A stretch of 64,000 nt of DNA from Diplonema japonicum. Taxonomy: Eukaryota > Protista > Euglenozoa: Diplonemea. The notes beneath the pieces are model-generated. The model was not told the DNA's origin and made no database searches. It saw nothing but the letters and a program-made list of their open reading frames with translations. The translations under genes and the position numbers were made by a program. The stretch covers positions 1 through 64,000 of the forward strand of contig OZ025715.1 of assembly GCA_964019335.1 (NCBI GenBank). Reading direction: 5' to 3'. Of the stretch, positions 3,587 to 55,546 are shown piece after piece. The first letter of the stretch is position 1. Every line of letters starts with the position of its first letter.

Positions 3587-3898
3587 CCACAAGTTACAAA
3601 AAACCCGCAAACTCAAGAAAGAATTATACTGTTCATTTCCTATAGGCGCCCTTGCAACGATCACCACAACCATCGCCAACGTGCCAAAAAATAGATGTGC
3701 AAAGGTAAAGAGATACAGACGGCGAACCGCGCATCTCCTAAAAAGGAAGTCGTTGACCTCCATGCAGAGATTTAAGAAATGTCTCGAACACTTAGAACTA
3801 GGGGGAGGGGGGTGTTTAAAAGGTTTGCTTTTTTTGTGATTTTCCCATCCTTTTATGGTAACGGGTTGAGGGGGGGGGGGGCAAACACTTAGAAGTCC

Positions 3899-4073
3899 GG
3901 CTATGCTGGCATGGAAACAACATTTCCATGCATTTTTTTTTAAAAAAAGGGAAACGGAAACGGAGACGGAACGTTTCCTTACGTTTCCTTTAAAGGAAAC
4001 GTGTTTCCATAAGAATTTTGAAAACATGGAAACGGAAACGGAAACGGAAACGTTTCCTGCCAGCATACCCCTA
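3899..4073. mobile_element. Deleted hAT-like MITE, same family as 19009-19623
   Basis: TIR GGCTATGCTGGCA...TGCCAGCATACCC; subterminal GGAAAC repeats. Confidence 0.75.
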
Positions 4074-4697
4074 GGCATAGTGGTGAAGCGAGTCGCATTC
4101 TCGCACAAAAAAAATCTGAGCCGATATTCTCGCAAAACGACTCGCATTCTCGCACATGCTGGTGTGCACTTCAGATGTGTCAAAATAACCCCCCCGCCCG
4201 CCCCTCGACCTTCATACTCCTCCCGAACCAACGCGATCGGTGCGTTCACGTCCGCCCGTGTGTGATTCACCCTCCTTGATGTCCAGGTGGAGGAAGAGTG
4301 GCTCCTCTGAGTATCCGACCAGAAATGTTTGGCACTGGTGGCGTCTGTGCTTTACGGCAACAAGGTCTTTTCGCTTTGCTTCGCTCTTCTCGAGCCCTTG
4401 TCTCCTTCTCGAATCCGGGCCCCTTTGTGTGTCTGGTGTCGGTATCTTCATGCGTGAGCTCCACCAATGGGATGCTGGGAAGGCGTGTTTGGTGGTTGGT
4501 GGTGCCTGCGACCAAACACGACAGCGCCCACCCGTCTATCAACTCCGGCCCCACCACGGGGCAAAGCACTGCCTGTTGAGGTCCTTCGAAGTTATTGACA
4601 CTCAGGCACCTGGTTACCAGTGTTTCCCTGTTGAAGTTTTCAGCCAAAAAAATTCTCGCATCATTCTCGCATGCAAGTCGTTTCACCACTATGCCTG
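4072..4697. mobile_element. TIR DNA transposon remnant (YAGG termini, hAT-like), with possible transposase relic inside
   Basis: TIR TAGGCATAGTGGTGAAGCGA / TCGTTTCACCACTATGCCTG; subterminal TTCTCGCA repeats; weak frameshifted hAT-like peptides (FLVG..PLFL..NHT..EEYE) on the minus strand. Confidence 0.7.
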
Positions 4698-5111: not shown

Positions 5112-8100
5112 TTAACGTTTTTTCAACGAAAAGAGTGAAAAGAAGTTGGTGACTGTTTTTGCTATTGTTCCCCAAAGGCCGTAAGAGTTGTACAGCTTCC
5201 CTTTGCAGCTACCACGTTCAAAGTGGGTGGAGATACATTCCTTTCCACACAGCCAGCACCAGTTGCAGCCACAGGGACAGTAAACAGCATTACACCCACC
5301 CCCATCCATCAGGGTTTTGGCCTTGCACCGTGGGCAACTCTTCAGTGTCTGCATGTACTTGTCTGCCTCCGCATTTTCTTTTTTGATTTCGTTATGTCTT
5401 TTTTCAAATTGTTCACACGAATCCCTTTCATCACGATGCTCTTGGTCTTGGCACTTCGGGCACAGCTTTTTTTCGCAACACGAGCACGGCACAAAACGGC
5501 CATTCGCCTTCCCCAGATCAATTTCAAGTATCCCAGGGCAATCAACAGTCAAAAAACAGTCCCTATGGGTAGTGTGATGCGTCTTGAGGAAGTACCTACG
5601 TGCCTTTTTGATCAGAGTGCTTGTATCCACATCAAAGGTGTTCGCTATGTTTTTAACTTCGTCAAAAAGTAGCATCTGCCCACATTCCTCCTTCTTTCCA
5701 TGGTCAACATGCATACATCTATAAGGGACTTCTTCTTGTATAAAGCTGCCTGCGCACTCGAAGCACATGATGTGCCCACAGTTGAGCTCAAACTTGTCCC
5801 CTTCAGAAGAACAGCACAGACACACAAAGCACACAGCTTCGCCTTCCTGCTTTTGCTTTGAGCTTTGCATCATCGACTTCAGGGCGTCTTTTATCACAAT
5901 GATCTCCTCGGCCGTGCTTTCCAACTCCACTTGCTTGCCTTTCTCTGAAAGCTTGAGATTAGAGAATCGCTTTTTCAGCTGGGTGCATGTCTCGTAGGGG
6001 ATATGGCGTGTGAAAGTAACAAGATGAGACTTGTCTTCAAGGGTTTTGCGAATGGCGACAGCTGCCTCCTCCTGCCTGGCTCCTTTGATCACAATACGTG
6101 CGAGGCGGTCGAAGCCCACCACAGCGCAGGACACTTTGAACTCATGGCGGACTGAGCCCATCTTTCGAGCGACGGCCGCACTGCGCATACGCATCCCATT
6201 GGCGTCAGCTTCAGAGAAGGTACTTACATTTCCCTCTTTGGCCCAAATGGCAACCCCTTGCACCACCTCCTTCACTCCTTTCACCGTCCTCCCAACGGCT
6301 TCCTCTGTCTGCCCTGTGATGTACACCGTCGAATTACGAGGGTGTGCGTTCAACACAGCACGTGTACTGTGTTCTGCTGCTTTCTTGTCGATCTCATTCT
6401 GCAAGTAATCGGCGATCATCATAACCTGCGATGTGTACACAGCAACACTAGCGTTGAAGCTACTGGTCGCAGTGACATGCATCTTGAGCTCAGGGATGTC
6501 TCTATAGAACACACCACGTGCTTCTCGAATGGCCTCCATCACATTCCTTGCAGTAGCATCTCTGTTCTTTGGAGTGAGGGTGGCGTGCTGCCAGTCGCAG
6601 CGGCCCACAGAAGAAATGTCAAATTTGTCTTCAGGGTCGGTGCATCCGAGACACTTTTGCAATTTTTGCACCGCGATCTTAGCATTGTGCTCCGTAGGAA
6701 GTGATTTGAAGATTTGCTGTACACACTTCAAACCCTTCACTCCAGCTTCACGTAGATCCTTTTCCACATACGAGCTGTGAACGAGGGTACTTGGGAGAAC
6801 AACATCTAGTTCGGTGTCATTGGTGTTGCTATTCCGAAGACAGTGTTTTCCTTTATAGTTGTGGGCCGCACGCTGTGCAGCAGCAGCTGAAGTGAACACT
6901 GCGACTGTCTCAGGCCTCGTGGCCTGCCAGTAGAGGTCAATCACACACCGCACCACCTGCGCCCCACCAATGCTTATTGGTTTAATGTCCAGCAGACACC
7001 CCCCCGCCCACACTGCGTCGTGTTCCCCTTCAAGGATCACTTTCTGTGCGGCTTGCGGTGTTCCGAAATATGCGAATCCCTCTACATCATAGTCCGTTAT
7101 CTTTGTTAACTTCACGAAATGTGCGTTCAACTCAAGCATTTTCTTACGAGTTGCTACTGAAAGGTTTTCTTTTTCGTACATCGCATCGGACTCTTCAAGA
7201 TCTCTCGAGACTGTGAAGGTGATGCCCAGTGTCTCGGAAGGGTCGGTGAGGATCTGTTGACACGTGTATCCCTTGCCGATGAGCAAGCGCAGAGCAGGAT
7301 GGTCTTCGCAGATGGAGGACTCCATCAGACAGTTCGAAAGGTACTCACGCACAAATTTTATCTCTCGATCAAGAATAGCTCTTATGTGTTTACAGTTCTC
7401 CGTTGTAGCAGAAATCGAGAGACTCCTTTCACCGGCATCAGTGAACACCTTGCCATACTTGGACACTTCAGACTGCCACCCTGAATGATGCATCCCAATG
7501 CGCACAACCTCATCGAACTCACGCTTCGTGAGCGGTGGAGTGCTGCGGAACTTTTTTGAGAACACCTTCAATCGATCGGGCGCCTGTTCGTGCATGAAAG
7601 AACACCCTTCGCCCTTATGACAGCAGCCTTCTGAGAAATACTTGCAAGGTTTCGTCTTTTCTTTGTTCGGTCGTGCCCTGCTGTCATTCAGGCATTCGGC
7701 ATCCATCTTCTGCTGCTGCATAGCTTTGGTGTTCTTCTTGGGCTTCTTATCCTTCTTGCAGTCATCTTTTGCAGGGTTTGCCTCGTAGTCATCTAGGTCT
7801 ATCTCTTGATGCTTGTCTTCGGTGTTCTTCTTATGTCCCTTCGCGTTGTGCTTGTCGTTCTTTTTGGATCCCTTGTAGTCATCTTTTGCAGGGTTTGCCT
7901 TGTAGTCATCGAGCCCAAGGTCCATCTCTTGATGCTGCTTGTCTTCGGTGTTCTTTTTGTGTCCATGTCCCTTCGCATTGTGCTTGTCGTTCTTCTTGTG
8001 TCCTTTGCCGCCCCCCTTGTAGTCACCTTTTGCAGGGCTTGCATCGTAGTCATCCAGGAGCCCAGGGTTCACGTTTTGATGCTGCTTGTCTTCTGTGTTC

Positions 8101-9461
8101 TTCTTGGATCCCTTCGCGTTGTGCTTGTCGTTCTTCTTGTGTCCTTTGCCGCCTCCCTTGTAGTCACCTTTTGCAGGGTTTGCACCGTAGTCATCCAAGA
8201 GCCCAGGGTTTACGTTTTGATACTGCTTGTCTTCGGTGTTCTTCTTGGGTCCCTTGCCACCTCCCTTGAAGTCATCTTTTGGGCTTGCATCGTAGTCTTT
8301 ATCAGGGTCCATCTCTTGATGCTGTTTGTCTTCGGTGTTCTTTTTGGGTCCCTTTGCATTGTGCTTGTCGTTGTTCTTGTGTCCTTTGCCTCCCCCCTTG
8401 TAGTCACCTTTTGCAGGGTTTGCACCGTAGTCATCCAAGAGCCCAGGGTTTACGTTTTGATACTGCTTGTCTTCGGTGTTCTTCTTGGGTCCCTTGCCAC
8501 CTCCTTTGTAGTCATCTTTTGTAGGGCTTGCACTGTAGTCATCTAAGTCCATAAGCCCAGGGTCCATCTTTTGCTGCTGCTTGTCGTCGGTGTTCTTTTT
8601 GGGTCCCTTCGCATTGTGCTTGTCGTTCTTCTTCTTGGGTCCCTTGCCGTCCTCACCTTTTGCGGGGCTTGTGTTGTAGTTATCTAGATCCAGGAGCCCA
8701 GGGTCCATCTTTTGATGCTGCTTGTCTTCGGTGTTCTTATGTCCCTTCGCGTTGTGCTTGTCGTTCTTCTTGTGTCCTTTGCCGCCTCCCTTGTAGTCAC
8801 CTCTTGCAGGGTTTGCACCGTAGTCATCCAAGAGCCCAGGGCTTACGTTTTGATACTGCTTGTCTTCGGTGTTCTTCTTGGGTCCCTTGCCACCTCCTTT
8901 GAAGTCATCTTTTGCAGGGCTTGCATCGTAGTCTTTATCAGGGTCCATCTCTTGATGCTGTTTGTCGTCGGTGTTCTTCTTATGTCCCTTCGTGTTGTGC
9001 TTGTCGTTCTTCTTGTGTCCCTTGCTGCACCCCCTGTAGTCGAGCTCTTTCATTTTTTCTTCGACCCTTTGTTGCACAAGTGCCTCTATCCTTTCTTCTT
9101 CTGTCAGTTGTGCAACATGTGGGTCTTGCATATCGGTGTTCTTCTTGGGCCCCTTCGCATCGTGCTTGTCGCTCTTCTTGGGTCCCTTCGCATTGTGTTT
9201 GTCTTTTTTCTTCGGTCCTTTGCCACCCTTCTTGTAGTCATCTAAATCCGCCAGGTTTTCGCTCAAGTTGGTCACTGGCAGCGTTGCCTTTTCAGATTCC
9301 TGCGACCTGGATTCGTGTATGAAAGAACACCCTTCGCCCTTATGACAGCTGCCTTTGGAGAAATACTTGCAAAGTTTGGTCTTTTCCTTGTTAGGCCGTG
9401 CTGTGTTGCTTTCAGTGGAACACTCCAGGTGTTCGGTCTTTCCTTTTCCTTCAAATTGCAT
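5112..9461 (-). CDS. Two CCCH zinc fingers + K/G/D/N/H-rich tandem repeats + C-terminal RING1-IBR-RING2 (RBR) E3 ubiquitin ligase, 1449 aa, intronless
   Basis: CKYFSKGSCHKGEGCSFIH and CKYFSEGCCHKGEGCSFMH; RING1 CFVC..CGHIMCFEC; IBR C..DC..CSCC..LCPKC..H..C; RING2 CPRC..GGGCNAVYCPCGCNWCWLC. ATG at 9461 follows a CACACAG acceptor. Confidence 0.88.
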   Translation of the reverse strand: MQFEGKGKTEHLECSTESNTARPNKEKTKLCKYFSKGSCHKGEGCSFIHESRSQESEKATLPVTNLSENLADLDDYKKGGKGPKKKDKHNAKGPKKSDKHDAKGPKKNTDMQDPHVAQLTEEERIEALVQQRVEEKMKELDYRGCSKGHKKNDKHNTKGHKKNTDDKQHQEMDPDKDYDASPAKDDFKGGGKGPKKNTEDKQYQNVSPGLLDDYGANPARGDYKGGGKGHKKNDKHNAKGHKNTEDKQHQKMDPGLLDLDNYNTSPAKGEDGKGPKKKNDKHNAKGPKKNTDDKQQQKMDPGLMDLDDYSASPTKDDYKGGGKGPKKNTEDKQYQNVNPGLLDDYGANPAKGDYKGGGKGHKNNDKHNAKGPKKNTEDKQHQEMDPDKDYDASPKDDFKGGGKGPKKNTEDKQYQNVNPGLLDDYGANPAKGDYKGGGKGHKKNDKHNAKGSKKNTEDKQHQNVNPGLLDDYDASPAKGDYKGGGKGHKKNDKHNAKGHGHKKNTEDKQHQEMDLGLDDYKANPAKDDYKGSKKNDKHNAKGHKKNTEDKHQEIDLDDYEANPAKDDCKKDKKPKKNTKAMQQQKMDAECLNDSRARPNKEKTKPCKYFSEGCCHKGEGCSFMHEQAPDRLKVFSKKFRSTPPLTKREFDEVVRIGMHHSGWQSEVSKYGKVFTDAGERSLSISATTENCKHIRAILDREIKFVREYLSNCLMESSICEDHPALRLLIGKGYTCQQILTDPSETLGITFTVSRDLEESDAMYEKENLSVATRKKMLELNAHFVKLTKITDYDVEGFAYFGTPQAAQKVILEGEHDAVWAGGCLLDIKPISIGGAQVVRCVIDLYWQATRPETVAVFTSAAAAQRAAHNYKGKHCLRNSNTNDTELDVVLPSTLVHSSYVEKDLREAGVKGLKCVQQIFKSLPTEHNAKIAVQKLQKCLGCTDPEDKFDISSVGRCDWQHATLTPKNRDATARNVMEAIREARGVFYRDIPELKMHVTATSSFNASVAVYTSQVMMIADYLQNEIDKKAAEHSTRAVLNAHPRNSTVYITGQTEEAVGRTVKGVKEVVQGVAIWAKEGNVSTFSEADANGMRMRSAAVARKMGSVRHEFKVSCAVVGFDRLARIVIKGARQEEAAVAIRKTLEDKSHLVTFTRHIPYETCTQLKKRFSNLKLSEKGKQVELESTAEEIIVIKDALKSMMQSSKQKQEGEAVCFVCLCCSSEGDKFELNCGHIMCFECAGSFIQEEVPYRCMHVDHGKKEECGQMLLFDEVKNIANTFDVDTSTLIKKARRYFLKTHHTTHRDCFLTVDCPGILEIDLGKANGRFVPCSCCEKKLCPKCQDQEHRDERDSCEQFEKRHNEIKKENAEADKYMQTLKSCPRCKAKTLMDGGGCNAVYCPCGCNWCWLCGKECISTHFERGSCKGKLYNSYGLWGTIAKTVTNFFSLFSLKKR
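7740..9240 (-). repeat. Coding tandem repeats (hierarchical units, near-identical 240-bp period in part)
   Basis: Repeated KGGGKGPKKNTEDKQYQNVNPGLLDDYGANPAKGDY / HKKNDKHNAKG peptides. Confidence 0.9.
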
Positions 9462-9768
9462 CTTTTCCTGTGTGAACGGAGAGAAAAGAACGTAGGAAAG
9501 GAATTTAAAAAAGGGGGGATACAAGCCTATTGAGAAAAGAGTGAAATGAGATTTCATCGAAGTTTAAGTGAGGGGGGGACAAAAAACTAGGTAACCCTCA
9601 GGAGCTTCCATAAGGATGTGCTTCAGTGTCAGGGTGTTGAAGCAGTTGGGTATGACCCCTTGGCCGAAAAATGGGACAAGAGGGGACAACATGGGACAAG
9701 AGGGGACACACCTGAAAACCCCCCTCTGGCCCAGAAATGATGTCAAAATGTGTCAAAACATGTTTTTA

Positions 9769-10575
9769 TTACTTTCCACCAAACTCCGGTTTTTCGCTGT
9801 TGCTCTTTTCTTCAGCCACGGGTGGTGTGAGAGGTGTGAGAACACCACTGCAAGTTGAATGTGGCTGTGAACAATGCAGCTCTTCCTGGAGATTCTTTAT
9901 TTTCTCCTCAAGATGCAACTTTGCCTGTGTGTCACACAGTAGATTTGGGCTGACACGGTTTGTTTCTTCGAGTGCAAACACCTTGTAACTCCCATCACAC
10001 ACTGGAGGGAAGAAGTGCATGTCACCAGGATCCTGTGCATACTCAACTGCTGCACCTGCCCCAGCAAGGTTACCAATAACAGTCCCATCCCATGCATTCA
10101 GGACATCATTGTCGTTGATTCAATGCCTGTTGTCCAGCTTTTTCCAGAACTGGACTTTAAAGGTGGACCCCACACCTTTGTCAGCAATAAACGCTAGCAT
10201 CTCTGCATATGCAAAGCCATTCTTCTTGCTAGTCCACATAAACATAGCAGCCTTTCAGGGTGTTTGGCTGTGCAGTTCACCAACTTTCTGGCTAAGCTGG
10301 GGTGAAGGGCTTCTTGATACTGATCCACTCCTTTTCCACTTTCGAATAGCCTGAGAATTCTTTGGTTTTGGTTTTGGATCCAGTTTGTCCTTTTTAACTG
10401 GGGGTTTTTTCTTCTCATGGAGGCAGGCTAGTTCCTTTCTAAAACCAGCACTCTCCTGCTCATAATGTTCATCTGCATGTGATGTGTCACCATGTGCAGA
10501 ACTGCCCTTGTCTCCATCTGGTGCAGCAAGGGCAGTTGAAAACATGCACAAACATATTACTACAAGCATAATCAT
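9769..10575 (-). pseudogene. Decayed ORF with signal-peptide-like N-terminus, interrupted by two in-frame TGA codons
   Basis: ORF-track pieces 10255-10575 and 9769-10020 are in one frame. Stops are at 10255-10257 and 10120-10122 (both TGA, consistent with CGA->TGA). The sequence is CpG-depleted. Confidence 0.6.
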
Positions 10576-11013
10576 CTTGTTTATGGTTTTTATCCTGTGG
10601 GCCTATCCTGTTGCTTAATGGTTAAAGTAAGAAAAGAGTTTAAAAAGAAACTAAGAAAACTCAGAAACCATAGCTAAGACCCCTATTTCAGTGATGGGTG
10701 AATCCTAATTAGGACTAGACCAGACTGGACTGGACCAGACCAGATCTGGTGTGAATTTCGACCCAATTATGCCAGACTGACCAGACTGACTGGACTGACC
10801 AGACTGGACCAGACCAGAGTGGACTGGACCAGACCAGACCAGACTGGACCAGACTGGACTGGACTGAACCGGCAGACAAGATACAACCACAACACCACAT
10901 CCCCCCCTTTTTTTTTTGCTGCAGAGTTCAAACGTATAAACAGATGTCTACAAGAAAAGATGTTACACAGGTACTGAGAGATGACAACAACAACAACAAT
11001 GAGAAACAAAGGG

Positions 11014-11049
<36 letters not shown>

Positions 11050-11174
11050 CTTCTTTTTCAGGTGGTGGGGATTACATGAAAATATAAGAAAAACATCAGA
11101 TGTGTTTGCTGTTGACCTCCTCATCAGTCATCACCAAGTAAACCACATGAGTGCAGAATCTTGGTTACCCAGGG

Positions 11175-12104
11175 CAGTGTTGTTACAGGAAAAAACCCAG
11201 GGGCATGGGGGGTGGGGGGGTGGGGGGGGCAAAAAAAATTTTTTTTCTAGGGACCCTCACTCATTTAGCACCCTCAAAACAGACTTTTTTGGAAATTTTT
11301 GGCCAAAAAAAAATTTTTTTTTCCCAGGGGACCCCTAACTTGGGGTCACTTTGGCAATTTTTGACCCCAAATTTTTTTTTTTCTGGAAATAGCCAGAAAT
11401 CATGAAATTTATATTAAATACACCTTAAAAACCCATTTCTGCAACCAAAAAGTTCAGAAAGGTGTTTAGGTGGAATACACATCTCTAAACAGTGTTGGTC
11501 AGTCCCGTCCCATCCCCTAAAACGGAATATGGGCCTGGACGGGACTCACAGGACTCATGGGACTCTCCCCAACACTGTCATTATTTTTGATAGTTTTGCA
11601 ACTTTTTTTTTTTTTTTTTTTTTTTTTCCCCTTTGGAAAAAAAAAAAAAAAATGGGGGAAAAAAAAGAGAAAAAAATCCTTGATTTTTTTTGACATACAT
11701 GATGTGTTTACCTTTTCTTTTTTTTTCCTTCTTTTTTCTTGTCTTCTCACATTTTTTCGCACACCTAAACCAAGCTGTTGTTTCTGCTTTCCGCATCAAA
11801 TGTTGTAGCTTCTTCTGCATTCTGTGGTCCTTAATCACCATGGCCGAGTTGTAGCTTTTTGTGTTCTGCATCATTTCCTTAATCACAATGGCTGGACGGC
11901 TGGGTTGTAGCTTCTTCTGTGTTCTGTGTCATGTCCTTAATGTGTGGTGTTCAGCTCAACCCCAGCCAGGGCACCCCAGGTAACTAAGATTCTGTGCTTG
12001 TGTGGTTTGCTCAGTGATGACAGATGAGGAGGTCAACAGCAAACAACACATCTGATGTTTTTCTTATATTTTCATGTTATCCCCACCACCTGAAAAAGAA
12101 GATA

Positions 12105-12140
<36 letters not shown>

Positions 12141-12505
12141 TATATTGTGCACCAGGAGGTGCACATTGTGACACCTGCTTTTTCCTGTGCAGCATAGTGA
12201 TACATGTTATAAAACATGTGCTGTGTTGTGCACCCTGTGTTGCATGCATCATGTGGAACATCAGGTATGCAAAATATGGTGTAAAATATGTCACAACACA
12301 CCACATGGTGTGGTGAAAATTTGGTGTTGGGGTGGTTTGTGGGCCAGACCCCTCAGACCCCACCAGTCTGGCAAACACTGCCCATCCCTTTTTTTATTTC
12401 TTTTTTTTTTTCTTTTTTTTTTTTTTTGCATTGTATTTTTCTTGCAAAGGCCTCTTTTTAATATATTTTTCAAAGCAGGTCTCCAAACCCCCTGACATTT
12501 TTTTT

Positions 12506-12544
<39 letters not shown>

Positions 12545-13128
12545 GTCACAACAAGGTAGTACCCAAACCTAGGACCTCTTTTTTTTGAACCTTTGAAACC
12601 AAAAGTACCAAAAAAATGCAAGCCCCAGCCTAAATTTGGGCCTTTGTAACACAAAAAACACAAAGAAATTTTTTGGTCCCAAGAGTCCCCTGAGTCCCCT
12701 GAGTCCCTTGAGTCCCTCCTGTCCTGTCCCTTGGAGTCCCCTGAGTCCCTCAAGGGTCTGGACCAACACTGTTTAGACCCTAAGGAAAAATTCCTAAAGT
12801 GATTTTTAAAAGATTCTTCAGTCTAAGTGGGGTCAAAACTTTCCATTGGCTGTTCAGAATTCCATTTTTGGGACAAAATTGGGTGTTCAAAAAAAAATTA
12901 TTTTTTTGCCCTCCTGGTGCTGTCATGAGGATGAGTTGCCCCCCTGAGATTTTCGGATTTTTACTTACTTTTTACTTCAGAATATAGTTTAGAGATGTGT
13001 ATTCCACCTAAACACCTTTCTGAACTTTTTGGTTTGCAGAAATGGGTTTTGAGGGTCCCTAGAAAAAAAAATTTTTTTTTGCCCCCCCACCCCCCTGCCC
13101 CCCTGGGTTTTTTCCCATAACAACACTG
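11175..13128. mobile_element. TIR element with CAGTGTTGTTA... termini and long imperfect inverted arms
   Basis: 11175-11258 and 11428-11490 are mirrored by 12987-13128. Confidence 0.75.
11490..12771. mobile_element. TIR element CAGTGTTGGTC...GACCAACACTG nested in the previous element
   Basis: 11-bp perfect TIR; GGGACTC subterminal repeats at both ends. Confidence 0.7.
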
Positions 13129-13548
13129 CCTGTAGCACCCTGAGTGGAAGAACAAATTGCAGATGCTCAGGGTGAGTAAACTACTTAGGGCACCAGCTGG
13201 GGTTGAGCTGCACACCGCATGCATTAAGGACACGATGTGGAATGCAGAAGCAGCTGAGGTGCACCCCCTGTCACTGGTCTCCTTTACCTCTTTCATGTTA
13301 TTTGGTGGTGGGGATCACAGAAATATGGAAATATAAGAAGTACATCAGATGTGTTCTGTTGACCTCCATGTTGGTCATCACTGGTAGTGCCTGAGTGGAG
13401 GAACGTATTGCAGATGCTCTGGTGTTGAGCTGCACACTGCACACATTAAGGACACGACATGGAATATTGTGCTGTCAGTGTTGTGGTGATATAGTCACCA
13501 CTTTCAACCTTGATGATGCAAAGAGGAAAAAAAAAGGGGGGGGGAAAA

Positions 13549-13660
13549 ACTAGTTTGACACTCCATTTGTTTGTGCACACAAGCGGAATAGGAACCTAAT
13601 AAAATAGCTCATTATGCTGCCATCAACTAGTTTTAGTCTTGACAATAATATTGTTAAAAC
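13549..13660. repeat. About 110-bp ACTAGT-bounded dispersed repeat, CpG-decayed copy
   Basis: Reverse complement of 49156-49336; absent from the duplicated segment near 17550-17590, so it is an insertion. Confidence 0.8.
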
Positions 13661-15247
13661 AAAAAAAAAAGTAAGGAATTCCCTGTTCCACCAAGTTCCG
13701 GTTCTGCTATTCTGCCAAGTTCAGTTTGGTGGAAGGGAATGGAACGACCCAATCCTGCACAAGCAGAATCTTGGTTACCCTGGAGGACGCCCCAGCTGGG
13801 GTTGAGCTGAACACCACACATTAAGGACATGACACAGAACACAGAAGAAGCTACAACTCAGCTGCCCTGTAATCAAGTAGTCTTGTGCAGGTCCTTTAAC
13901 TCATATATCTCTCACCGTGGCTGGGTTGTAGCTTCTTCTGCATTCCACGTCAATCCCAGGTGTGTCAAAAATTGCAGAAAATTTTCGAGTCCAGTCAGTC
14001 TGGTCAGTCTGGTAAATTGGGTACACCAGACTGGACCAGATTCTCAGGGGACTGGAGGGACTCAAGGGACTCTTGGGACCAAAAAATTTCTTTGTGTTTT
14101 TTGTGTTACAAAGGCCCAAATTTAGGCTGGGGCTTGCATTTTTTTGGTACTTTTGGTTTCAAAGGTTCAAAAAAAGAGGTCCTAGGTTTGGGTGGGATGT
14201 GAGGCAAGGCCAGTGATGGGTGAATCCAGTCTGGTCCAGTGTACCCATTTTACCAGACTGACCAGACTGACCAGATTGGCCAGACTGACTGGATCGGCCA
14301 GACTGACCAGACTCAAAAATTTTCTGCAATTTTTGACACACCTGCAAACACTTTTTTTTCAAATATTTTTGGACAATGATTTTTTTTTTTTTTTTTTTTT
14401 TTTTTCTTCTTCTTCATACCACACTGTGTGTGGTGTACAGCTCAACCCTAGCCAGAGTGTCCCAGGTAACCAAGATTCAACACTTGTGCAGTTTGCTGCC
14501 TGTTTGTCACCCTGAGCATCTGCATTATGCTCTTCCACTTGGGAGCTACCAAGAAAACCAACAGAATGTACCTAATCTTGCTCCAGTGAAGAAGCAAGTA
14601 GGCCCAGGCAGACCCAAAAACGGGTTTGTGATGAGTGACAACAGCTTTTCGACTTTTTTTTTTTTTTTTAAACCTCTTTTTTTTTCCTTTTTTTTTTCCT
14701 TAAACATGGGTAATATTTGGGTATTGTTAAATAAGGTTGCTGCTCACACTTTCTTTTCTCTTTCTTTTTTCTTTGTTCCTTTCTTTTTATTTTTTCTCTT
14801 CATGGCACTCTTCTTATTTCACACTTGTTCTCTTTTTTCCTCTTCTTCTTTTTCTGGGGGTAAACGAGTTGGGTTGTTTGGGTAAATGGGATTAGATAAG
14901 GCTGCTGCTCACAAACTTTTTTTTCTTCCTCTTTCTTCTCTTCATGGTGCTCTTCTTATCCATATTTATATTCCTACACTTGTTCTCTATTTTTCTTTTC
15001 CCTTTTCTTTTTCTTTTCTCCTTTGTCTCATTTGACTGTTATGCACCAGTCTGGAAACAACCACCCAGCAAGCACCCATTCTGAAATGGGGACTGAGGGG
15101 CCCAGGGAAGATGCCAGGCGCGGTGTTTTTTGTCCCTCCTGGGTGATGTATTTTCTTTTACACAAGTGTCATTCTATGGTTGCATGCTCAAGGATGTTTT
15201 AATTTTAGAAAATAAAAAAGTCGATGGTGACCTTTTTTTTGCCCAAA

Positions 15248-18200
15248 CAGTGATGGGTGAATCCTAATTAGGACTAGACCAGACTGGACCGGACCAGACC
15301 GGATCTGGTGTGAATTTCGACCCAATTATGCCAGACTGACCAGACTGACCAGACCAGACCAGACTGGACCAGACCGGACTGGACCAGACCAGACCAGACC
15401 AGACCAGACTGGAATGGACTGAACCGGACCGTACAAGATACAACCACAACACCACATCCCCCCCTTTTTTTTGCTGCAGAGTTCAAACATATAAACAGAT
15501 GTCTACAAGAAAAGATGTTACACAGGTACTGAGAGACAACAACAACAACAAAAACAACGAGAAACGAAAAAAAAAAAAAAAAACTTTTATCTTCTTTTTC
15601 AGGTGGTGGGGATTACATGAAAATATAAGAAAAACATCAGATGTGTTGTTTGCTGTTGACCTCCTCATTGGTCATCACCAAGCAAACCACACGAGTGCAG
15701 AATCTTGGTTACCCAGGGCACCCTGGCTAGGGTTGAGCTGAACCCTGCACACATTAAGGACACATTAAGGACACAACATGGAGCACAGAAGAAGCTACAA
15801 CTCGGCCGCAGTGATTAAGGACACGATGCAGAACACAGAAGAAGCTACAATCCGGCTGCTGTGCACCCCCTGTAATCAAGTAGACAGTTCTTGTGCAGGG
15901 CACTGCCAACACCGGCCTCCTTTAACTCTTGTATATTATTCCAAAGGTGGTGGGGATAGCATGAAAAAACATCAGATGTGTTGTTCACTGTTGACCTCCT
16001 CATCGGTCATCACCGGTAGCTCCCGAGTGGAAGAACATAATGCAGATGCTTAGGGTGACAAACAGGCAGCAAACTACACCCAAAAACCCCCATCCTTTAA
16101 TGGTTAAGGGTGTTTTTGGCCACTTTTTTTGGGAGGAAAAACAATTTTTTGGACATTCATTTTTTGGATATTTTTTTTTTTTTTCCAGCACCCCATGCAC
16201 CCAATAAAGTACAGCAAAAAAAAGGGGGGTAAATACAAAAAATGAGAAGGGTAAGTCATAAAGGCAAAAAAACCAACAGATAGACCATTACTAGGCCTGA
16301 TATAGGTACCCTTATGGAAAAAAAATCAATTTTTCTGAGGTAAAAAACCACTTTTCAGGTGTTTTTGACCACTTGTTCATGTGAAAAATAACTTTTTTTG
16401 GGCACCTTTTTTTTTGACCCCCAAACTTCTCACTTTCACCCCACTTCACAAAAGGCCTCTATTAAGGCCTAGGATAGGTACTTTTGAGAAAAAAACTTTT
16501 TTTTTTTTGGAAAAAAAATCAATTTTTGGGTGTCTTTGACAACTTTTTTTGGGTGGAAAAAAATTTTTTTTGGACACTATAAAAAAAATTTTTTTTTTGC
16601 CCCCCTGCCCCCCTGGATTTGCCCCCCTGTGCCCCCCCGAAAATCTCGGGGGGGCAACCCATTCTCGTAACAACACTGGACACGGAATGCAGAAGAAGCT
16701 ACAACTCGGTTGCGGTGCACCCCCTGTAATCAAGTAGACAGTTCTTGTGCAGGGCACCACCAACACCAGCCTCTTTTAACTCATATATATATCATTCAGG
16801 TGGTGGAGATTACATGGAAATATAAGAAGTACATCAGATGTGTTGTTCACTGTTGACCTCCATGTCAGTCATCACCAGTAGTGCCCAAGTGGGAGAACAT
16901 AATGCAGATGCTCAGGGTGATGAATTGGCAGCAAACTGCATGAGCACAGAATGTTGGTTACCCTGGGTTGTGTTGCTCTGGCTGGGGTTAAGCTGCACAC
17001 TGCACACATTAAGGACACAACGCAGAACACAGAAGAAGCTACAACTCGGCTGCAGTGCCCCCCTGTATCAAGTTAACAGTTCTTGTGCGGGTGCCACCAA
17101 CACGACGAACAGGCATTTTCCTCCATCCACTTGGCCGGTCATCACCTGTAGCACCCTGAGTGGAAGAACAAATTGCAGATGCTCAGGGTGAGTAAACTAC
17201 TTAGGGCACCAGCTGGGGTTGAGCTGCACACCGCATGCATTAAGGACACGACGCGGAACGCAGAAGCGGCCGAGGTGCACCCCCTGTCACTGGTCTCCTT
17301 TACCTCTTTCATGTTATTTGGTGGTGGGGATTACAGAAATATGGAAATATAAGAAGTACATCAGATGTGTTGTTCACTGTTGACCTCCACATCGGTCATC
17401 ACTGGTAGCGCCCGAGTGGAGGAACGTATTGCAGATGCTCTGGTGTTGAGCTGCACACTGCACACATTAAGGACACGACATGGAATATTGTGCTGTCAGT
17501 GTTGTGGTGATATAGTCACCACTTTCAACCTTGATGATGCAAAGAGGAAAAACAAAAAAAAAAAAAAAAAGAAAAAAAAAAAAAAAAGGTAAGGAATTCC
17601 CTGTTCTGCCAAGTTCCGGTTCCGCTGGTTCCGCCGTTCCACCAAGCTCCGACTTTTCAGTTTGGCGGAAGGGAACGGAATGACCCACCCCTGCATGAGC
17701 AGAATCTGGTTACCCGGGACGCCCCGGCTGGGGTTGAGCTGAACACCGCACACATTAAGGACACGACACGGAACGCAGAAGAAGCTACAACTCGGCTGTG
17801 GTGTACCCCCTGTAATCAAGTAGTCTTGTGCAGGTCCTTTAACTCATATATCTCTCACCACGGCCGGGTTGTAGCTTCTTCTGCGTTCCACGTCGATCAC
17901 CACAGCCGGGTTACATCCAAATACAACATTTCTGGACATATGTACATACCTGCAGCTGCAGTGCACTGGAGTAGATAGGTGCAAATGGCTTGATGGAGCT
18001 GTGCATGTCTGTGGTACAAAGAAGAAGAAGAAGAAGAAAAAAAAAAAAAAAAAAAGGAAAAAAATCATTGTCCAAAAATATTTGAAAAAAAAGTGTTTGC
18101 AGGCGTGTCAAAAATTGCAGAAAATTTTCGAGTCCGGTCAGTCCGGCCGATCCGGTCAGTCCGGTAAATTGGGTACACCGGACCGGACCGGATTCACCCA

Positions 18201-18503
18201 TCACTGCTTGATTACAGGGGGTGCACCACAGCCGGGTTGTAGCTTCTTCTGCGTTCTGCATCGTGTCCTTAATCACCGTGGCTGAGTTTTTTTTTTTTTT
18301 TAAATAGAGTTGTAGCTTCTTCTATGTTCCATGTCGTGTCCTTAATGTGTGGTGTTCAGCTCAACCCTAGCTGGGGTGCCCTGGGTAACCAAGATTCTGC
18401 ACTCATGTGGTTTGCTTGGTGATGACTGATGAGGAGGTCAACAGCAAACACATCTGATGTTTTTCTTATATTTTCATGTAATCCCCACCACCTGAAAAAG
18501 AAG

Positions 18504-18545
<42 letters not shown>

Positions 18546-18828
18546 CCCCCTTCGTTTCTTGTTGTTGTTGTTGTTGTCATCTCTCAGTACCTGTGTAACA
18601 TCTTTTCTTGTAGACATCTGTTTATACGTTTGAACTCTGCAGCAAAAAAAAAGGGTGGGGATGTGGTGTTGTGGTTGTATATTGTCTGCCAGTCCAGTCC
18701 AGTCCAGTCTGGTCTGGTCCCGTCTGGTCAGTCTGGTCAGTCCGGCATAATTGGGTCGAAATTCACACTGGATCCAGTCTGGTCCGGTCCAGTCCAGTCT
18801 AGTCCTAATTAGGATTCACCCATCACTG
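15248..18828. mobile_element. 3.6-kb composite element bounded by CAGTGATGGGTGAATCCTAATTAGG TIRs with a target-site duplication
   Basis: Flanks are gCCCAAA|CAGTG ... CACTG|CCCAAAc: a 6-bp TSD, or 8-bp GCCCAAAC if the termini are AGTG/CACT. Confidence 0.75.
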
Positions 18829-19008
18829 CCCAAACCCCCGTTTCCCAATGTTTTCCAGCCCCAGAAGTGCCCAGAATCATGTTCTAATTTTGGGGCCCCC
18901 ATTTGGTACTTTCCCTATGTAATCCTAGGGGCCCCTATTTTATGTTGTGAAGAGCCTGAAAAAGGGCAAAAAACGACCCCCTTATGACCCCCCCCCCCCC
19001 CCCCCCCC

Positions 19009-19623
19009 TAGGGCTATGCTGGCATGGAAATGCGTTTCCATGCATTTTTTGAAAAAAAGGGAAACGGAAACAGAAATGGCAACGTTTCCCTATTTTGGGG
19101 CCATTTCCTTGGGCAGAAACGTTTCCTTATTTTGGGGGTTTTAGAGACTTATTTTTTTGGGGGCAAATCACTTGGAAGAAATATACGAGACAAAGGGGGC
19201 CACTGTTGGTGGCACCCTGGGGAAATCTTCTGGGTTTCGATGAAGGATGTGATTGTGGCATCCATTTTTTGAACAGCGTCGTCAACCAGCCTTGGTGGGC
19301 GTGGAGTCTGCTGGTTGACGCTACTGTGAAGACCATATCACATATCACAGAAGCGACATTTTACTGTCTCCTTCCCATCCTCTGCCTGAACCTCCGCGCC
19401 TCCCAGGGGGTGCTTTCTCTGGACCATGTTTACTTTCGTTTTTGTAGAGACCGATGTGTGCTTAAAACCCCAAAAGTAAGTATCTTCAAAAACCCCAAAT
19501 ATATAAGGACCTTCTAAACAGTGTTTACCGAAATATACATAGCCGTTTCCATAACCATGAGAATTTTGAAAACATGGAAACGGAAACGGAAACGTTTCCA
19601 CGTTTCCTGCCAGCATAGCCCTA
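19009..19623 (-). mobile_element. Internally deleted hAT-like transposon carrying a BED zinc-finger relic
   Basis: TIR TAGGGCTATGCTGGCA...TGCCAGCATAGCCCTA. Minus-strand frameshifted peptides VKCRFCD...MVFTVASTSRLHAH are BED-like. Confidence 0.75.
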
Positions 19624-20147
19624 GGGGGGGGGGGGGGGGGGGGGCAATGTTTCCAACCTCCCTGTGGTGGTTCCTGGTAATTGTGGTTTGGAGAAACACG
19701 AGCGAAAGGGAAACTCTCGTTCTAAAGCCGTACACGTGGGGAAACCTGGACGGCCCACCCTATGCGTGGTGCCAGTTAACATCGCCCTCAACGGAGAGTC
19801 CCTTATCCCATTACATCAAACAAGGAGGTGGCTTCACCAGGTCAGGCAAGTAGCCTCCCCGCGGCATCGTGCCAGTGAAGCAAGCCTCCCACAACTCTCC
19901 AGTTGGTGTTTAATTGCTTCTGTGGCCCCTCTCCCTATTTCAATTTCCAAGCTTTCTTTACTTCTCCTTACGGGACCACAGGGGACTTGGGAGGCTTCGG
20001 GGCGAAGTTTCACAAGGGTGGTCGCTGTGTCACATACTGCATGGCACCACTAAAATCGAGACAACTTTTTCTCTTGAAAAGTAGTTTCTTGATTCGCTCT
20101 TGTTTACACTAAAATATAAATACCAGCACATATCAGGAAACTTAATA

Positions 20148-42378: not shown

Positions 42379-43925
42379 CTGTAAAACAAAAATCCACCGG
42401 AAGATAAAATATCCGGACCGCCGAAACATCCGGTGATTTTTTCTTCCGGACATTTTATCTTCCGGACATTCTTTTGGGCACTTTTCTAAGGGGGTACCTA
42501 GCCTGACCTACGCACTGCCCCCTCTGTCTGGAAAACTTATATTTCTGTTGCAAGAGTCTTAAGAACGGCAAAAATAAAATTCAAATTAACAGACGAAAGC
42601 TGCATGCTCTAAAAAGGGGAAGGACATATCTCGCGACCCCTCCAGGTGCTGACCTCTTCAGGTGACTGAAATGATATTGCAAGTGGGAATATCTTCAGGT
42701 GAGAGGCACCCTTCAATGGCTGCGTCCCAGCAGGTTGGAGAGTACTTTTCCCGACAATAGAACTAAAAAAGGGGGCGAGGAAAGGGCAGCATCTTACCTG
42801 TCCGCACGTCTGGCCGTCTTGTTTGCTGCCTTCGCAGCCTTGGCAGTGCGCCTGGCCTCGGCCTTAATGGCACAAATAGGTGAGGTCTGGGGGGACAAAC
42901 GCTAAGTGAACGTTTGTTTCTGAAAACAAGTTCACAAAAGCCTGCGTAGTGTGGACATTGTAGTCATCAATGATGAGTAGGATGGGCTCGGTGGGTGCTC
43001 AGCCCGATGACTCGATGAGGTTGTAGCAAAGGGGAGAAACAAATCTTTTACCCAGAGCCGAAGCGTTTCCTGGGTGGCCCAGTGAGATTTCGAAGCTGTT
43101 AAACTCCAGCCTTTTGGGGGGTGTGCAACACGAGGGACGGACCCGAGGTATTTCCTGCCGCGAGCTGGTTCTGTTTTTCCCGTGTAAATTAGCTGCGGGT
43201 GCAGTTTGCCACCAGTCAGGGAAACGCAAAACTGTCCGGTGACGGCGCCCTTGTCCTAAATCCCTAACCTTGACAACCTTGGGACCCCTTTTCGTCTTCT
43301 TCCCAGCGGCAGCAGCTGGTCCATGTTCCAGGTCAACCGGCCTGATCTTTGTGAACCTCCTCGCTGCTTGGGTGTCTTTGGGGCTGCTAGACTTCCCTAT
43401 TGTTGGGTGGCGGCTTGTGATGCCATGCTTGGAGCACAGCTGGTTGGCCCTCTGCATACAGGCAGATGTCCGACGCTGCTACCGACACCCCCCTTCCGTT
43501 CTGCATCTGGATCCAAACAAAGAGCCTTGTTGTTTCTTCCTAGTTCAGAAGAGCTTGCGACCCGCAGTAACGGGTGCGGCAGGGGGATCGACCTTGGAGC
43601 TACCAAAGCGGTGCTTCCAGTCTGATATACTGGACATTGGCTCCATGACGCAAACCCGCAAAAAATAAGAACAACCCTAAAGCAAGCACAAGAAGTGGTT
43701 TGGTTCAACAAGCTTGTGGTAGAAGCAAACAATCAGGATCTGAGGTGTCTTTTAGTTCTTGGAAAAGTCCGTAATTCAATTCTCTGATTTTTGTTTGATT
43801 TTCTCTTGCTATAGAAACTAGTTTCATCTGTTTTCGGGTCCGGACCGCCAGAGCTTCCGGACATTTTATCTTCCGGACATTTTTTCTTCCGGACATTTTA
43901 TCTTCCGGTGATTTTTGTTTTACAG
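42379..43925 (-). mobile_element. Decayed pogo/Tc2-like (Tc1-mariner superfamily) transposon with TA TSD
   Basis: TA|CTGTAAAACAAAAAT..CACCGGAAGATAAAAT TIRs at both ends. Minus-strand relics DKGAVTGQFCVSLTGGKLHPQLIYTGKT and PILLIIDDYNVHTT...FVPPDLT (DDE_1) carry stops and frameshifts. Confidence 0.88.
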
Positions 43926-48567: not shown

Positions 48568-49155
48568 ACGTTTTCTTCTTATTCTTATGACCAGCACGTG
48601 CGTTAAATAAAATAATTACTTTTTGATTTTTTTTTTCTTTTTCCTCTTCCTGGATTAGCTTCGCGTGTTCGATTTCTGTTTTTTTTTTTTTTTTTTTTTT
48701 TTTGTTTTTTTTTTTTTTTTTTTTTTTGTTAGAATTATTTTATTTAATGCCGACGAACAAAAGACACAGCTGGCCATAAGTCATAAAGAAACTTTTTTTT
48801 CCCCTTTTTTGTCTGGGTTCACAAACTTTTTTTTTCTCCTTTTTTGTCTAGGTTCAGGGATTGGATTCACATTTTTTTTTGTTTTATTATTATTAACATG
48901 TAGCCAAGGAGAAATGGTGTGAAATATTTTCCCTTTCTTTTTTTTACCCCCCTTTATTTTATTGTTCCATTATTTCTTTTTTCTCCATATTACCCCCAAC
49001 TCCCTTCTTTCTTTTTTTTTTCTTATTTCTCCCTCCTTCCCTCCTACAAAGAATTCGCAACACGCTTTTTGTTTTATTTTGTTTGAAAGCCACAAGATGG
49101 TGAGCGCGAAAACCGCAAACCTTAAGTTGTCTAGTTCTTTTTTTTTCCTTTTTTT

Positions 49156-49225
49156 GTTTTAACAATATTATTGTCGAGACTAAAAACTAGTTGATGGCAG
49201 CGTAATGAGCTATTTTATTAAATGT

Positions 49226-49283
<58 letters not shown>

Positions 49284-49336
49284 TTATTAGGTAAAATTCC
49301 GCTCGTGCGCACAAACAAATGGAGCGCCAAACTAGT
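49156..49336. repeat. CpG-intact copy of the ACTAGT-bounded repeat, split by a poly(T) insertion flanked by TTATTA
   Basis: Reverse complement matches 13549-13660. Confidence 0.8.
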
Positions 49337-49981
49337 TTTTTTTTTCTGACCTAAAAGAAAATAACAAGCTGTAAGTAGGAGCGAGGGATTGTAAGAGGAA
49401 AAAAAAAAAAAAAAAAAGAAGCTAAGAAAAAAAAAAAAGAAAGAAAAAAAACGAATAAGAATGGAGAAGGGAAACCAGAAAGAAAGAAGGAAAGAAAAGC
49501 TATTTATTCACAACGAATATAATAATGGAATTTTTTTTTTTCTGCTACTCTTGGGAAGGAGGAAGAAAAAAAAAAGAAAAACAGGGAGGAAATTAGGGGC
49601 GTGAATAATGGCGGGTTTGTCACACGTCTTTTCTCATTTTTATTTTTTTTTCTCTTATACCTTTGCATTCATTCCATACCCCCCCCCCCCCCCCCGATTT
49701 CCTTTGTTTACCCAAGGGACAATAACAATAAAAAATATTGGAAGAAGTAGAGTAAAAAAAAATTCTTAAAAAAAAGAAATTGAGAGGTAGTGCAACAATT
49801 TCACCCCCCCCCCCCATTCCTTTTCTGACAGTTCTTTCATTGCATAATGTGTGCTTGTCAGGCCTTTTTTTTTTCCCTTCTCTTTTTTTTTCTTCTTTCT
49901 TTATTTTCCTTTTTTTTTATTTTATTATTTTTTTTTTAACTACCTCAGCAACCCCACCCACAGGCATTGATAACAGTCAAC

Positions 49982-51936: not shown

Positions 51937-52712
51937 AGATTGTTGAAGGAAGGATGGAAGGAAAAAAAAAAAGAAAGAAAGGAGGAAAAAAAAATCAATG
52001 TCCGGTACGCTTTCGAGAATGTTAAGTACGGGTTCAGTACCCCCCCCCCCCCCCTCCTTGTCTGCTCTTCTCTTTTCTTCTTCTTTTTTTAATGGCCCTT
52101 TTTTTGTTTTTTTTAATTCTTTTTCTGTAAGACAGATGCAGAAAAATACATTGGTACCAATGGGGCCAAGTGGCATCTTCGAAGGTAGCAAGTGGTGGGC
52201 ATTGAAAAAAAAAAAGAATGGCAAAGGAGCGGGCTTTTTTTAAAATCTTAAAAAAAGAAACAGACAGAGGGACAATTAAAAAAAAACCCCCACCTAAATT
52301 TTATTTTATTTTTCAAGTGGTTATATTTGCCTGGGCTCTGGTAGGGGTCTTTATAGTTTTTTTTATTTTATTTTCTCTTTTTTATTTTACTTTTATTTTA
52401 GAGTGTCGTACAAGGAAAACCAAAAAAGGGTACTCTTTTCATCCCCCCCCCCCCCCTTTTTTACTTCTTGATCCCCCAGCCCTGTCCCCCAAACAGATTT
52501 AGTGTCCTCCACCCCCTCACTCCCTGGGCCCTTTTTTTTCTTTATTTCCTTTCCCCCTTTTTATTTTATGGATCGCACGATCCCCCTCCCAGGTTTTTCC
52601 ACGTTCGCCCCCCTGCGTATCCCGAGGCCTTTACTTTCACTTCTCGTCCTCCCTTGACACAGTTGTCTGCAAAGGAGGGAGAGGGGGGGGGGGGGGGGGG
52701 GGAAAGGAGGCA

Positions 52713-53684: not shown

Positions 53685-53748
53685 TTTTATATGTTACGCA
53701 CGGGCACGCCTCACTGCCTCCCAATACCAAACAGTATTCACAGCAAAA

Positions 53749-55122: not shown

Positions 55123-55546
55123 GTACCTCTTACTGTTGTGCGCGCGCTAAAAGTGTTTAGTTGAGAAGAAAAGAGAAACTGTGCAAAAGCAGCAACCGCG
55201 TCTCGAGAGGAGTACTGTGACAGCTGTCTTGCGAGACAAACGTTCAACGTCTCGCCTTGTCTTGTCTTCGTCTTGAGATGATATACCTTTTGCACCCTGT
55301 TTTTCTTTTCTTCTTCAGAATCTTTTGTTTCGCTTTTCTTTTTTTTTATATCCCCTTCTTGTTGTTTTCGATATGTGTGCTGAAGTAGCTAAACCCAACG
55401 AAAAAAAAAAAAAAAAAAAAAAAAAAAGTCGTACCAACTGTGCCACTTGATGTTTCACTCCTCCCCCCTCACTGCTGCTTTGTTTTGCCCCCTTCCCCCC
55501 CTTGTCTTTCCATTCGCACATAGCAACTCACAGTAATGCTTCGGTG

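What the first reader, a model, noticed from the sequence alone, without database searches (positions are those of the whole stretch)
10689..18828. Strong CpG-directed hypermutation of the transposon island
Seen: paralogous copies differ mostly by CG->TG/CA. At 17251 ACGCGGAACGCAGAAGCGGCCGAGG versus 13235 ATGTGGAATGCAGAAGCAGCTGAGG, all 5 changes are at CpG. Subterminal CCGGA arrays decay to CTGGA/CCAGA, and neighbouring pseudogene stops are all TGA. Known: this is the signature of 5mC deamination or RIP-like processes, and CpG methylation of TEs is not an established feature of kinetoplastids. Inference: this diplonemid has a repeat-targeted cytosine methylation/mutation defence.
Basis: partly seen in the sequence, partly recalled or inferred. 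Interest (0 to 1): 0.8.

Follow-up and report, generated by a model that had tools for sequence, protein, structure and literature searches.

The report
CpG decay in diplonemid transposon cluster
In a marine diplonemid protist, copies within one cluster of transposon-like repeats differ mostly by CG-to-TG/CA changes while repeats among nearby genes do not, which is likely the scar of cytosine methylation in a lineage where I found no measured methylome.

Summary
The host is a diplonemid other than D. papillatum. The island is a nest of TIR-bounded, non-coding, high-copy repeats. CpG observed/expected is 0.30 (left half 0.15) against 0.67-0.74 in genes, and the depletion starts near 9,600. In paralogue alignments 88 of 137 CpG cytosines vary C/T, against 76 of 1,820 other cytosines. 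In the youngest pairs the CpG rate is about 60-140 times the non-CpG rate (at least 27 times).

The pattern is not RIP-like: CpG only, both strands hit equally, no strand clustering, and coding tandem repeats largely spared. It is limited to the domain: a copy of an island element at 49.2 kb keeps 6 of 6 CpGs, and a pogo-like relic is untouched.

Best reading: deamination of symmetric CG methylation, likely laid by DNMT5, which a published table lists for 3 of 3 diplonemids. Neither 5mC nor the enzyme was shown in this organism. The mechanism is known; the lineage looks new. This scan noted similar decay in fungi and diatoms, not diplonemids.

The parts
9600..18828 (.). CpG-depleted repeat domain (strongest about 9.7-16.6 kb; longest CpG-free gap 11897-12954)
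   Evidence: CpG counts per 200 bp and o/e by region
9772..10602 (-). Broken 277-codon frame with two in-frame TGA (10257, 10122), CpG o/e 0.16, apparently low-copy repeat; no homologue found
   Evidence: summed depth 3-12 times the bin at 9400-9576 in run X1
10689..11176 (+). Type-A element end (terminal inverted repeat beginning CAGTGATGGG, then a decayed GACCG-unit array)
11175..13128 (.). Nested unit bounded by inverted CAGTGTTGTTA termini (a further such end at 16678); no target duplication found
11490..12771 (.). Nested unit bounded by inverted CAGTGTTGGTC termini; no direct target duplication found
13129..14043 (+). Decayed copy of the collinear internal block plus truncated type-B end; holds the 13235 example
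13548..13667 (+). Short inserted element that has lost 5 of 6 CpGs relative to its isolated copy at 49149-49337
14211..14415 (+). Type-B element end, 8 of 9 aligned CpGs lost
15248..18828 (.). 3,581-bp composite bounded by two inverted type-A ends and flanked by a 6-bp direct repeat (CCCAAA); likely the youngest insertion
   Evidence: the only one of 14 candidate terminus pairs with a direct flanking repeat
17145..18206 (+). CpG-retaining copy of the collinear block and intact type-B end; holds the 17251 example
42379..43925 (-). Control outside the island: frameshifted pogo/Tc1-like relic with TA flanks, all 10 subterminal CCGG intact, CpG o/e 0.69
   Evidence: DDE_1 match is weak (E 0.026, below the curated cut-off)
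49149..49337 (-). Control outside the island: isolated copy of the short element, 6 of 6 CpGs kept

Best explanation
This cluster of nested non-coding transposon-like repeats has lost CpG sites one by one on both strands, likely because it is a silenced domain carrying symmetric CG methylation whose 5-methylcytosines deaminate to thymine. Shown: CpG specificity, strand symmetry, independence of strand choice between neighbouring sites, and confinement to the island within this window. Inferred: the mark is 5mC, the writer is a DNMT5-type CG methyltransferase, and CpG-rich copies are recent arrivals from, or sit in, unmethylated sequence. Mutation would be a by-product of silencing that, over time, would also erode the CCGG-rich terminal arrays.
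For: CpG cytosines vary C/T at 88 of 137 sites; CpA 38 of 755, CpC 19 of 538, CpT 19 of 527 (a stricter filter gives 75/129, 28/699, 16/470, 15/507). Of 277 inferred ancestral CpG sites, 89 read TG, 106 CA and 82 CG (TG vs CA p = 0.25). Neighbouring lost sites share a strand in 72 of 144 pairs, against 72.2 by permutation. Three copies of the B end chose TG or CA independently at the same sites. Controls outside the island: CpG/non-CpG ratio 1.4 and 2.8 in two coding tandem arrays and 0.9 in other dispersed pairs, against 15.4 inside. Contigs of public runs laid on the left part show a C or G that restores CpG in 11 of the 40 displayed rows and lose a CpG in 2. Literature: DNMT5 listed in 3 of 3 diplonemids, with no DNMT1 or DNMT4 in any (PMC12344493 Table S1); fungal Dnmt5 is CG-specific and guided by H3K9me (10.1101/149385); 5mC marks young TEs in the discoban Naegleria.
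Against: No methylation data, and no methyltransferase gene was seen for this organism (no genome held). The rate contrast in young pairs (about 60-140 fold, lower bound 27) is above the roughly 10-15 fold I recall for mammals, though it rests on 5 non-CpG transitions in pairs I picked. Cryptococcus Dnmt5 has only maintenance activity, so the source of new methylation is unexplained. One 64-kb window and one island only. Genes are also mildly CpG-poor (0.67-0.74), and one coding tandem array shows a 2.8-fold CpG bias (p = 0.0007).
Confidence: 0.75

Rival explanations
1. An accelerated mutator works on the silenced domain: methylated CpGs are deaminated enzymatically (by the methyltransferase itself or a deaminase), or T:G mismatches go unrepaired, so that mutation is the defence. 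This would be a functional analogue of RIP with CpG specificity and no strand processivity.
For: Very high contrast in young pairs: 47 of 60 CpG columns differ against 5 transitions and 5 transversions in 1,212 other columns. Losses are lopsided between partners, 32 on the left copies and 6 on the right (p = 2e-5). Two single copies are strand-skewed (8:1 and 1:7).
Against: No strand clustering over the whole island (72 of 144 vs 72.2; 66 of 124 vs 61.7 without arrays, p = 0.25). With all ten pair segments the contrast drops to roughly 17-39 fold (hand arithmetic: 65 of 83 CpG columns, 33 transitions in 1,850 others; CpG is saturated there). The lopsidedness is explained as well by a young copy from an unmethylated master. 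No DNMT4/RID listed in 3 diplonemids.
Confidence: 0.13
2. The mark is CG methylation but the writer is not DNMT5: a DNMT3-like, orphan, or transposon- or virus-borne methyltransferase acts on these families.
For: Hemistasia is listed with 2 DNMT3 and 1 orphan DNMT; DNMTs carried by retrotransposons are known in other protists. A de novo writer is needed somewhere.
Against: DNMT5 is the only predicted DNA-directed family shared by the three diplonemids listed. No Pfam domain of any kind in six frames of 9500-19300.
Confidence: 0.07
3. Methylation-independent CpG mutability acts everywhere and simply shows most in old neutral sequence.
For: Genes and intergenic DNA are mildly CpG-poor (0.66-0.74).
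Against: Non-coding and transposon-like sequence outside the island keeps its CpGs: frameshifted pogo-like relic 0.69 with 10 of 10 CCGG, element at 4073-4696 0.90, AT-rich spacer 0.71, isolated copy at 49.2 kb 6 of 6. Dispersed pairs at 79-90% identity outside the island show no CpG bias (11 of 71 vs 66 of 384; that set also includes many poly-A matches).
Confidence: 0.03
4. The differences are base-calling or polishing errors of the assembly.
For: Methylated motifs can be miscalled in long reads (own knowledge); no laid contig spans the whole stretch.
Against: Contigs from runs X1, X2 and X5 (two studies) match parts of the CpG-poor flank with no difference, and 4,545 of 21,604 laid records in X1 are at least 99% alike. 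TG and CA outcomes are balanced and differ between copies. The best run may be the source of the window, and only the left part was laid.
Confidence: 0.02

Closest known systems
CpG decay of CG-methylated transposons (5mC deamination) in vertebrates, plants and fungi; review PMC9246332, passages read
   Same: CG>TG/CA transitions, both strands, site by site, concentrated in repeats.
   Different: Here inferred from sequence only, in Euglenozoa; the contrast in young pairs may be larger than in mammals (comparison recalled, not sourced).
Dnmt5-dependent CG methylation of transposon-rich repeats in Cryptococcus neoformans (10.1101/149385, passages read)
   Same: CG-only specificity, confinement to transposon-dense domains; relatives of this host list DNMT5 without DNMT1.
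   Different: Enzyme not shown in this organism; island sits among ordinary gene arrays; de novo source unknown.
Repressive 5mC on transposons in Naegleria gruberi, the nearest lineage with a methylome that I found (PMC12344493 section 7)
   Same: Discoban, repeat-confined methylation.
   Different: Naegleria uses DNMT1 and methylates all four dinucleotide contexts; the footprint here is CpG only.
[quoted passage not shown]
   Same: C-to-T transitions concentrated in repeats.
   Different: No CpA excess, no strand-coordinated clusters, coding tandem repeats mostly spared, partner copies hit unequally.
Trypanosomatids (Leishmania donovani, Trypanosoma brucei; PMC7463849, passages read)
   Same: Sister euglenozoan lineage.
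   Different: DNMT6 only and no detectable 5mC by whole-genome bisulfite sequencing; the diplonemid footprint points the other way.

Membership tests
5mC-deamination CpG decay of methylated repeats | C>T excess specific to CpG | tested here: met
   88/137 vs 76/1,820
5mC-deamination CpG decay of methylated repeats | Both strands hit equally and independently (symmetric mark) | tested here: met
   89 TG vs 106 CA; adjacency 72/144 vs 72.2
5mC-deamination CpG decay of methylated repeats | Confined to repeat-dense domains | tested here: met
   o/e and spectrum controls in one window
5mC-deamination CpG decay of methylated repeats | 5mC physically present on the DNA | not testable with these tools
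   only assembled contigs available
DNMT5-type CG methylation | DNMT5 gene (C5 methyltransferase plus SNF2 ATPase) in the organism | not testable with these tools
   no genome held; listed for 3 of 3 other diplonemids in PMC12344493 Table S1
DNMT5-type CG methylation | Nucleosome-linker periodicity (algal form) | tested here: inconclusive
   retention is correlated only within about 60 bp, no peak at 150-210 bp; 277 sites, low power
Fungal RIP | CpA (ascomycete) target context; feature recalled | tested here: not met
   CpA 28/699 vs CpC 16/470 and CpT 15/507
Fungal RIP | Strand-coordinated clusters of C>T; feature recalled | tested here: not met
Fungal RIP | Acts on any long duplication, both partners; feature recalled | tested here: not met
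   coding tandem arrays ratio 1.4 and 2.8 (selection confounds); partner losses 32 vs 6
Fungal RIP | RID/DNMT4 enzyme and a premeiotic window | not testable with these tools
   0 DNMT4 listed in 3 diplonemids
hAT-like DNA transposon (for the CAGTG-ended elements) | 8-bp target duplication and hAT transposase; features recalled | tested here: not met
   one 6-bp flanking repeat only; no Pfam match in six frames; superfamily left unassigned

The most novel reading that the evidence does not exclude
Diplonemids run a CpG-specific mutator confined to silenced repeat domains, in which DNMT5-type methylation is coupled to enzymatic deamination or to loss of T:G repair, destroying CpGs some 50-100 times faster than other sites: a RIP analogue outside fungi that works without strand processivity.
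Probability: 0.13. Interest if true: 0.8.

Novelty: new member of a known kind. Interest (0 to 1): 0.45.

Why it matters
It is indirect genomic evidence that a euglenozoan methylates CpG in transposon clusters, whereas trypanosomatids have no detectable 5mC. That supports repeat-directed CG methylation as older than the kinetoplastid loss and gives the predicted diplonemid DNMT5 a likely job. Two of the three diplonemids in the published table have DNMT5 without DNMT1 or DNMT3, so they offer a second system, beside Cryptococcus, for asking how a maintenance-type enzyme finds new insertions. It also shows how domain-limited silencing could work in a genome transcribed as long gene clusters. The mechanism itself is textbook.

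Tried and rejected
Whole-genome analysis and a methyltransferase search in this organism: no genome held.
Strand-coordinated (RIP- or kataegis-like) clustering: none at 30, 60 or 100 bp, with or without arrays.
5' neighbour preference: flat, 0.29-0.43.
CpA excess, CG>TA double hits and TpA purging, suggested by earlier scan notes on other genomes: no TA-versus-CG column was listed, 11 positions show TA versus CA/TG, CpA rate matches CpC and CpT, TpA o/e 0.54 vs 0.64 in genes.
Nucleosome periodicity: none seen.
Transposase relics in the island: 0 Pfam families in 6 of 6 frames. RNA families: 0.
Homologues of the broken flank frame: 0 Pfam, 1 weak hit at E 5e-4 among 1.84 billion proteins.
Relatives of the element by its 17-nt terminus: 60 metagenome and 4 viral loci; 3 of 64 matched the window over 24 or more bases, one of them not at the terminus, and the two terminus matches lie in bacterial FtsZ-like and ABC-transporter-like genes, so chance.
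Sequencing runs: no RNA holder listed. Small-share holders in organisms B and C are not used as evidence.
Literature: 'Diplonema + DNMT' returned meiosis papers; 'diplonemid + CpG' 6 papers, 3 listed, none on this; 'Paradiplonema + methylation' 3; searches showed no diplonemid methylome; the search for a sourced CpG rate ratio returned 0.
Full report
Host. The succinate dehydrogenase flavoprotein at 50248-51834 is 90% identical to the Diplonema papillatum protein and 73% to a named Trypanosoma protein; an unnamed transcriptome protein matches at 100%. The host is therefore a diplonemid other than D. papillatum. No whole genome is held, so all counts come from this 64-kb window plus contigs of public runs.

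Observation. The two quoted 25-mers are at the stated places and differ at five CpGs. The duplicate that holds them differs at 9 of 13 CpG columns and 1 of 367 others. CpG o/e is 0.30 in 10689-18828 (0.15 left of 15248, 0.46 right), 0.16 in the flank 9700-10688, and 0.66-0.87 in genes and spacers elsewhere; GpC is not comparably reduced (island CG:GC 112:288, genes 963:1515, p = 3e-5). Counting each island cytosine once, 88 of 137 in CpG vary C/T with a paralogue, against 38 of 755 CpA, 19 of 538 CpC and 19 of 527 CpT. These sites are not fully independent, because copies share ancestry.

Rate contrast. I aligned ten pair segments. All ten: 65 of 83 CpG columns differ; 33 transitions and 15 transversions in 1,850 other columns (about 17-39 fold by hand arithmetic, CpG saturated). 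I then dropped four segments, two older ones and two with no CpG column. The six left give 47 of 60 CpG columns against 5 transitions and 5 transversions in 1,212 others, a per-cytosine contrast of 63-144 fold with a lower bound of 27. Picking young pairs can inflate this, and the mammalian figure of about 10-15 fold is recalled; a search for a source returned nothing.

Anatomy. The island is a nest of non-coding elements with inverted termini beginning CAGTG. One family has an A end (10689+, 15248+, 18828-) and a B end (14211+, 18206-, truncated near 14043), both with GACCG-unit arrays. 13129-14043 and 17145-18206 are collinear copies. 15248-18828 is flanked by a 6-bp direct repeat, the only one among 14 candidate terminus pairs, and is likely the latest insertion. 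It retains 67 of 168 inferred CpG sites against 15 of 109 to its left (p = 2e-6). No Pfam or Rfam family matches the region, so the superfamily is unassigned. Contigs of four runs laid on 9400-14700 give summed depths of 75,000-1,030,000 in all but one island bin, against 460 in the gene-side bin of run X1. The tool warns that this is no copy number, but it shows that these are abundant families. In X1 the differing places are T>C 39, A>G 33, C>T 22 and G>A 19 of 134. Of the 40 rows shown (117 hidden), 11 restore a CpG, 2 lose one, 6 look like halves of CA/TG swaps and 21 are other. So CG is the ancestral state and the left island copies are the decayed ones.

Mechanism tests. Of 277 inferred ancestral CpG sites, 89 read TG, 106 CA and 82 CG. 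Neighbouring losses share a strand no more than by chance (72 of 144 vs 72.2; 66 of 124 vs 61.7 without arrays), and there is no 5' neighbour preference. Two single copies look strand-skewed (8:1, 1:7), which is what chance gives among many copies. There is no CpA excess and no TA-versus-CG column was listed. Retention is patchy over about 60 bp, without nucleosome-scale periodicity. This is the footprint of a symmetric CG mark decaying site by site, not of RIP.

Domain, not every repeat. A short element inside the island has lost 5 of 6 CpGs while its isolated copy at 49149-49337 keeps all 6. A frameshifted pogo-like relic at 42379-43925 keeps 10 of 10 CCGG and has o/e 0.69; an element at 4073-4696 has 0.90. 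CpG/non-CpG ratios are 1.4 and 2.8 in two coding tandem arrays and 0.9 in other dispersed pairs, against 15.4 in the island. Selection confounds the coding controls, and age confounds the transposon controls. Within three collinear pairs the left copies carry 32 losses and the right copies 6, which fits either young copies from an unmethylated master or a domain edge; I could not separate these.

The pseudogene claim. The flank frame 9772-10602 has two in-frame TGA stops, consistent with CGA>TGA, but no homologue was found, so neither gene status nor the ancestral codon is shown.

What is known. Valach et al. 2023 (PMC10161547; passages read, supplements 2-8 searched, Additional file 1 too large to open) report DNA methyltransferase homologues in D. 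papillatum and infer a 5mC pathway; the passages give no measurement. Sarre et al. 2025 (PMC12344493; abstract, sections 5 and 7, passages, Table S1 rows) list DNMT5 in Sulcionema specki (2), Rhynchopus humris (2) and Hemistasia phaeocysticola (1), no DNMT1, 3 or 5 in five kinetoplastids, and repeat-confined 5mC in Naegleria. Cuypers et al. 2020 (PMC7463849; passages) found no 5mC in L. donovani or T. brucei. Catania et al. (10.1101/149385; passages; author names of these two papers recalled) show Cryptococcus Dnmt5 is CG-specific and maintenance-only. A review (PMC9246332; passages) calls RIP the only known exploitation of 5mC mutagenicity and says it may exist outside fungi. PMC9998398 was seen as one passage. 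Nine searches of the held library showed no diplonemid methylome or CpG-decay report; subscription papers are mostly not covered. Earlier scan notes hold nothing for this genome and six similar cases in fungi and diatoms.

Verdict. A real, strong, CpG-specific and domain-limited decay. Most likely (0.75) it is deamination of DNMT5-type CG methylation on a silenced transposon cluster: a known mechanism in a lineage where it appears not to have been measured. An accelerated mutator stays possible (0.13) because of the high contrast in young pairs. Interest 0.45.

Noticed in passing
window 42379-43925: Pogo/Tc1-like transposon relic with TA flanks, CCGGA-rich inverted termini and a frameshifted DDE_1-like frame; trypanosomatid mobilomes are reported to hold only retrotransposons (abstract listing).
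   Followed up: partly
window 5112-9563 (-): 1,483-codon frame with CCCH zinc fingers, a long K/D/H-rich tandem repeat and a C-terminal RING-IBR-like region; its start is duplicated internally (7587-7691 vs 9312-9415) and a fragment recurs at 2888-2950.
   Followed up: partly
window 3897-4075 and 19010-19625: Small family with GGAAAC(G) arrays and CCCTAGG-type ends, one copy abutting the right edge of the island; CpGs mostly kept.
   Followed up: partly
window 4073-4696: Element with inverted AGGCATAGTGGTG termini and TTCTCGCA repeats, CpG o/e 0.90.
   Followed up: partly
window 11484-11490 and 12771-12777: The nested element's flanks are inverted (TCTAAA / TTTAGA) rather than direct, and the same TCTAAA-CAGTG junction recurs near 19513-19524; either a longer terminus or a palindromic target.
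   Followed up: no
window 20085-45470 and 50000-59400: Genes are mildly CpG-poor (o/e 0.67-0.74) with raised TpG/CpA; low-level methylation or codon usage not separated.
   Followed up: no
window 56932-59437: Protein built of tandem 'KRSDPSEP..KKTYTKKEFLDLYGEKKG' repeats separated by short introns or spacers; 2.8-fold CpG bias among its repeat units.
   Followed up: partly
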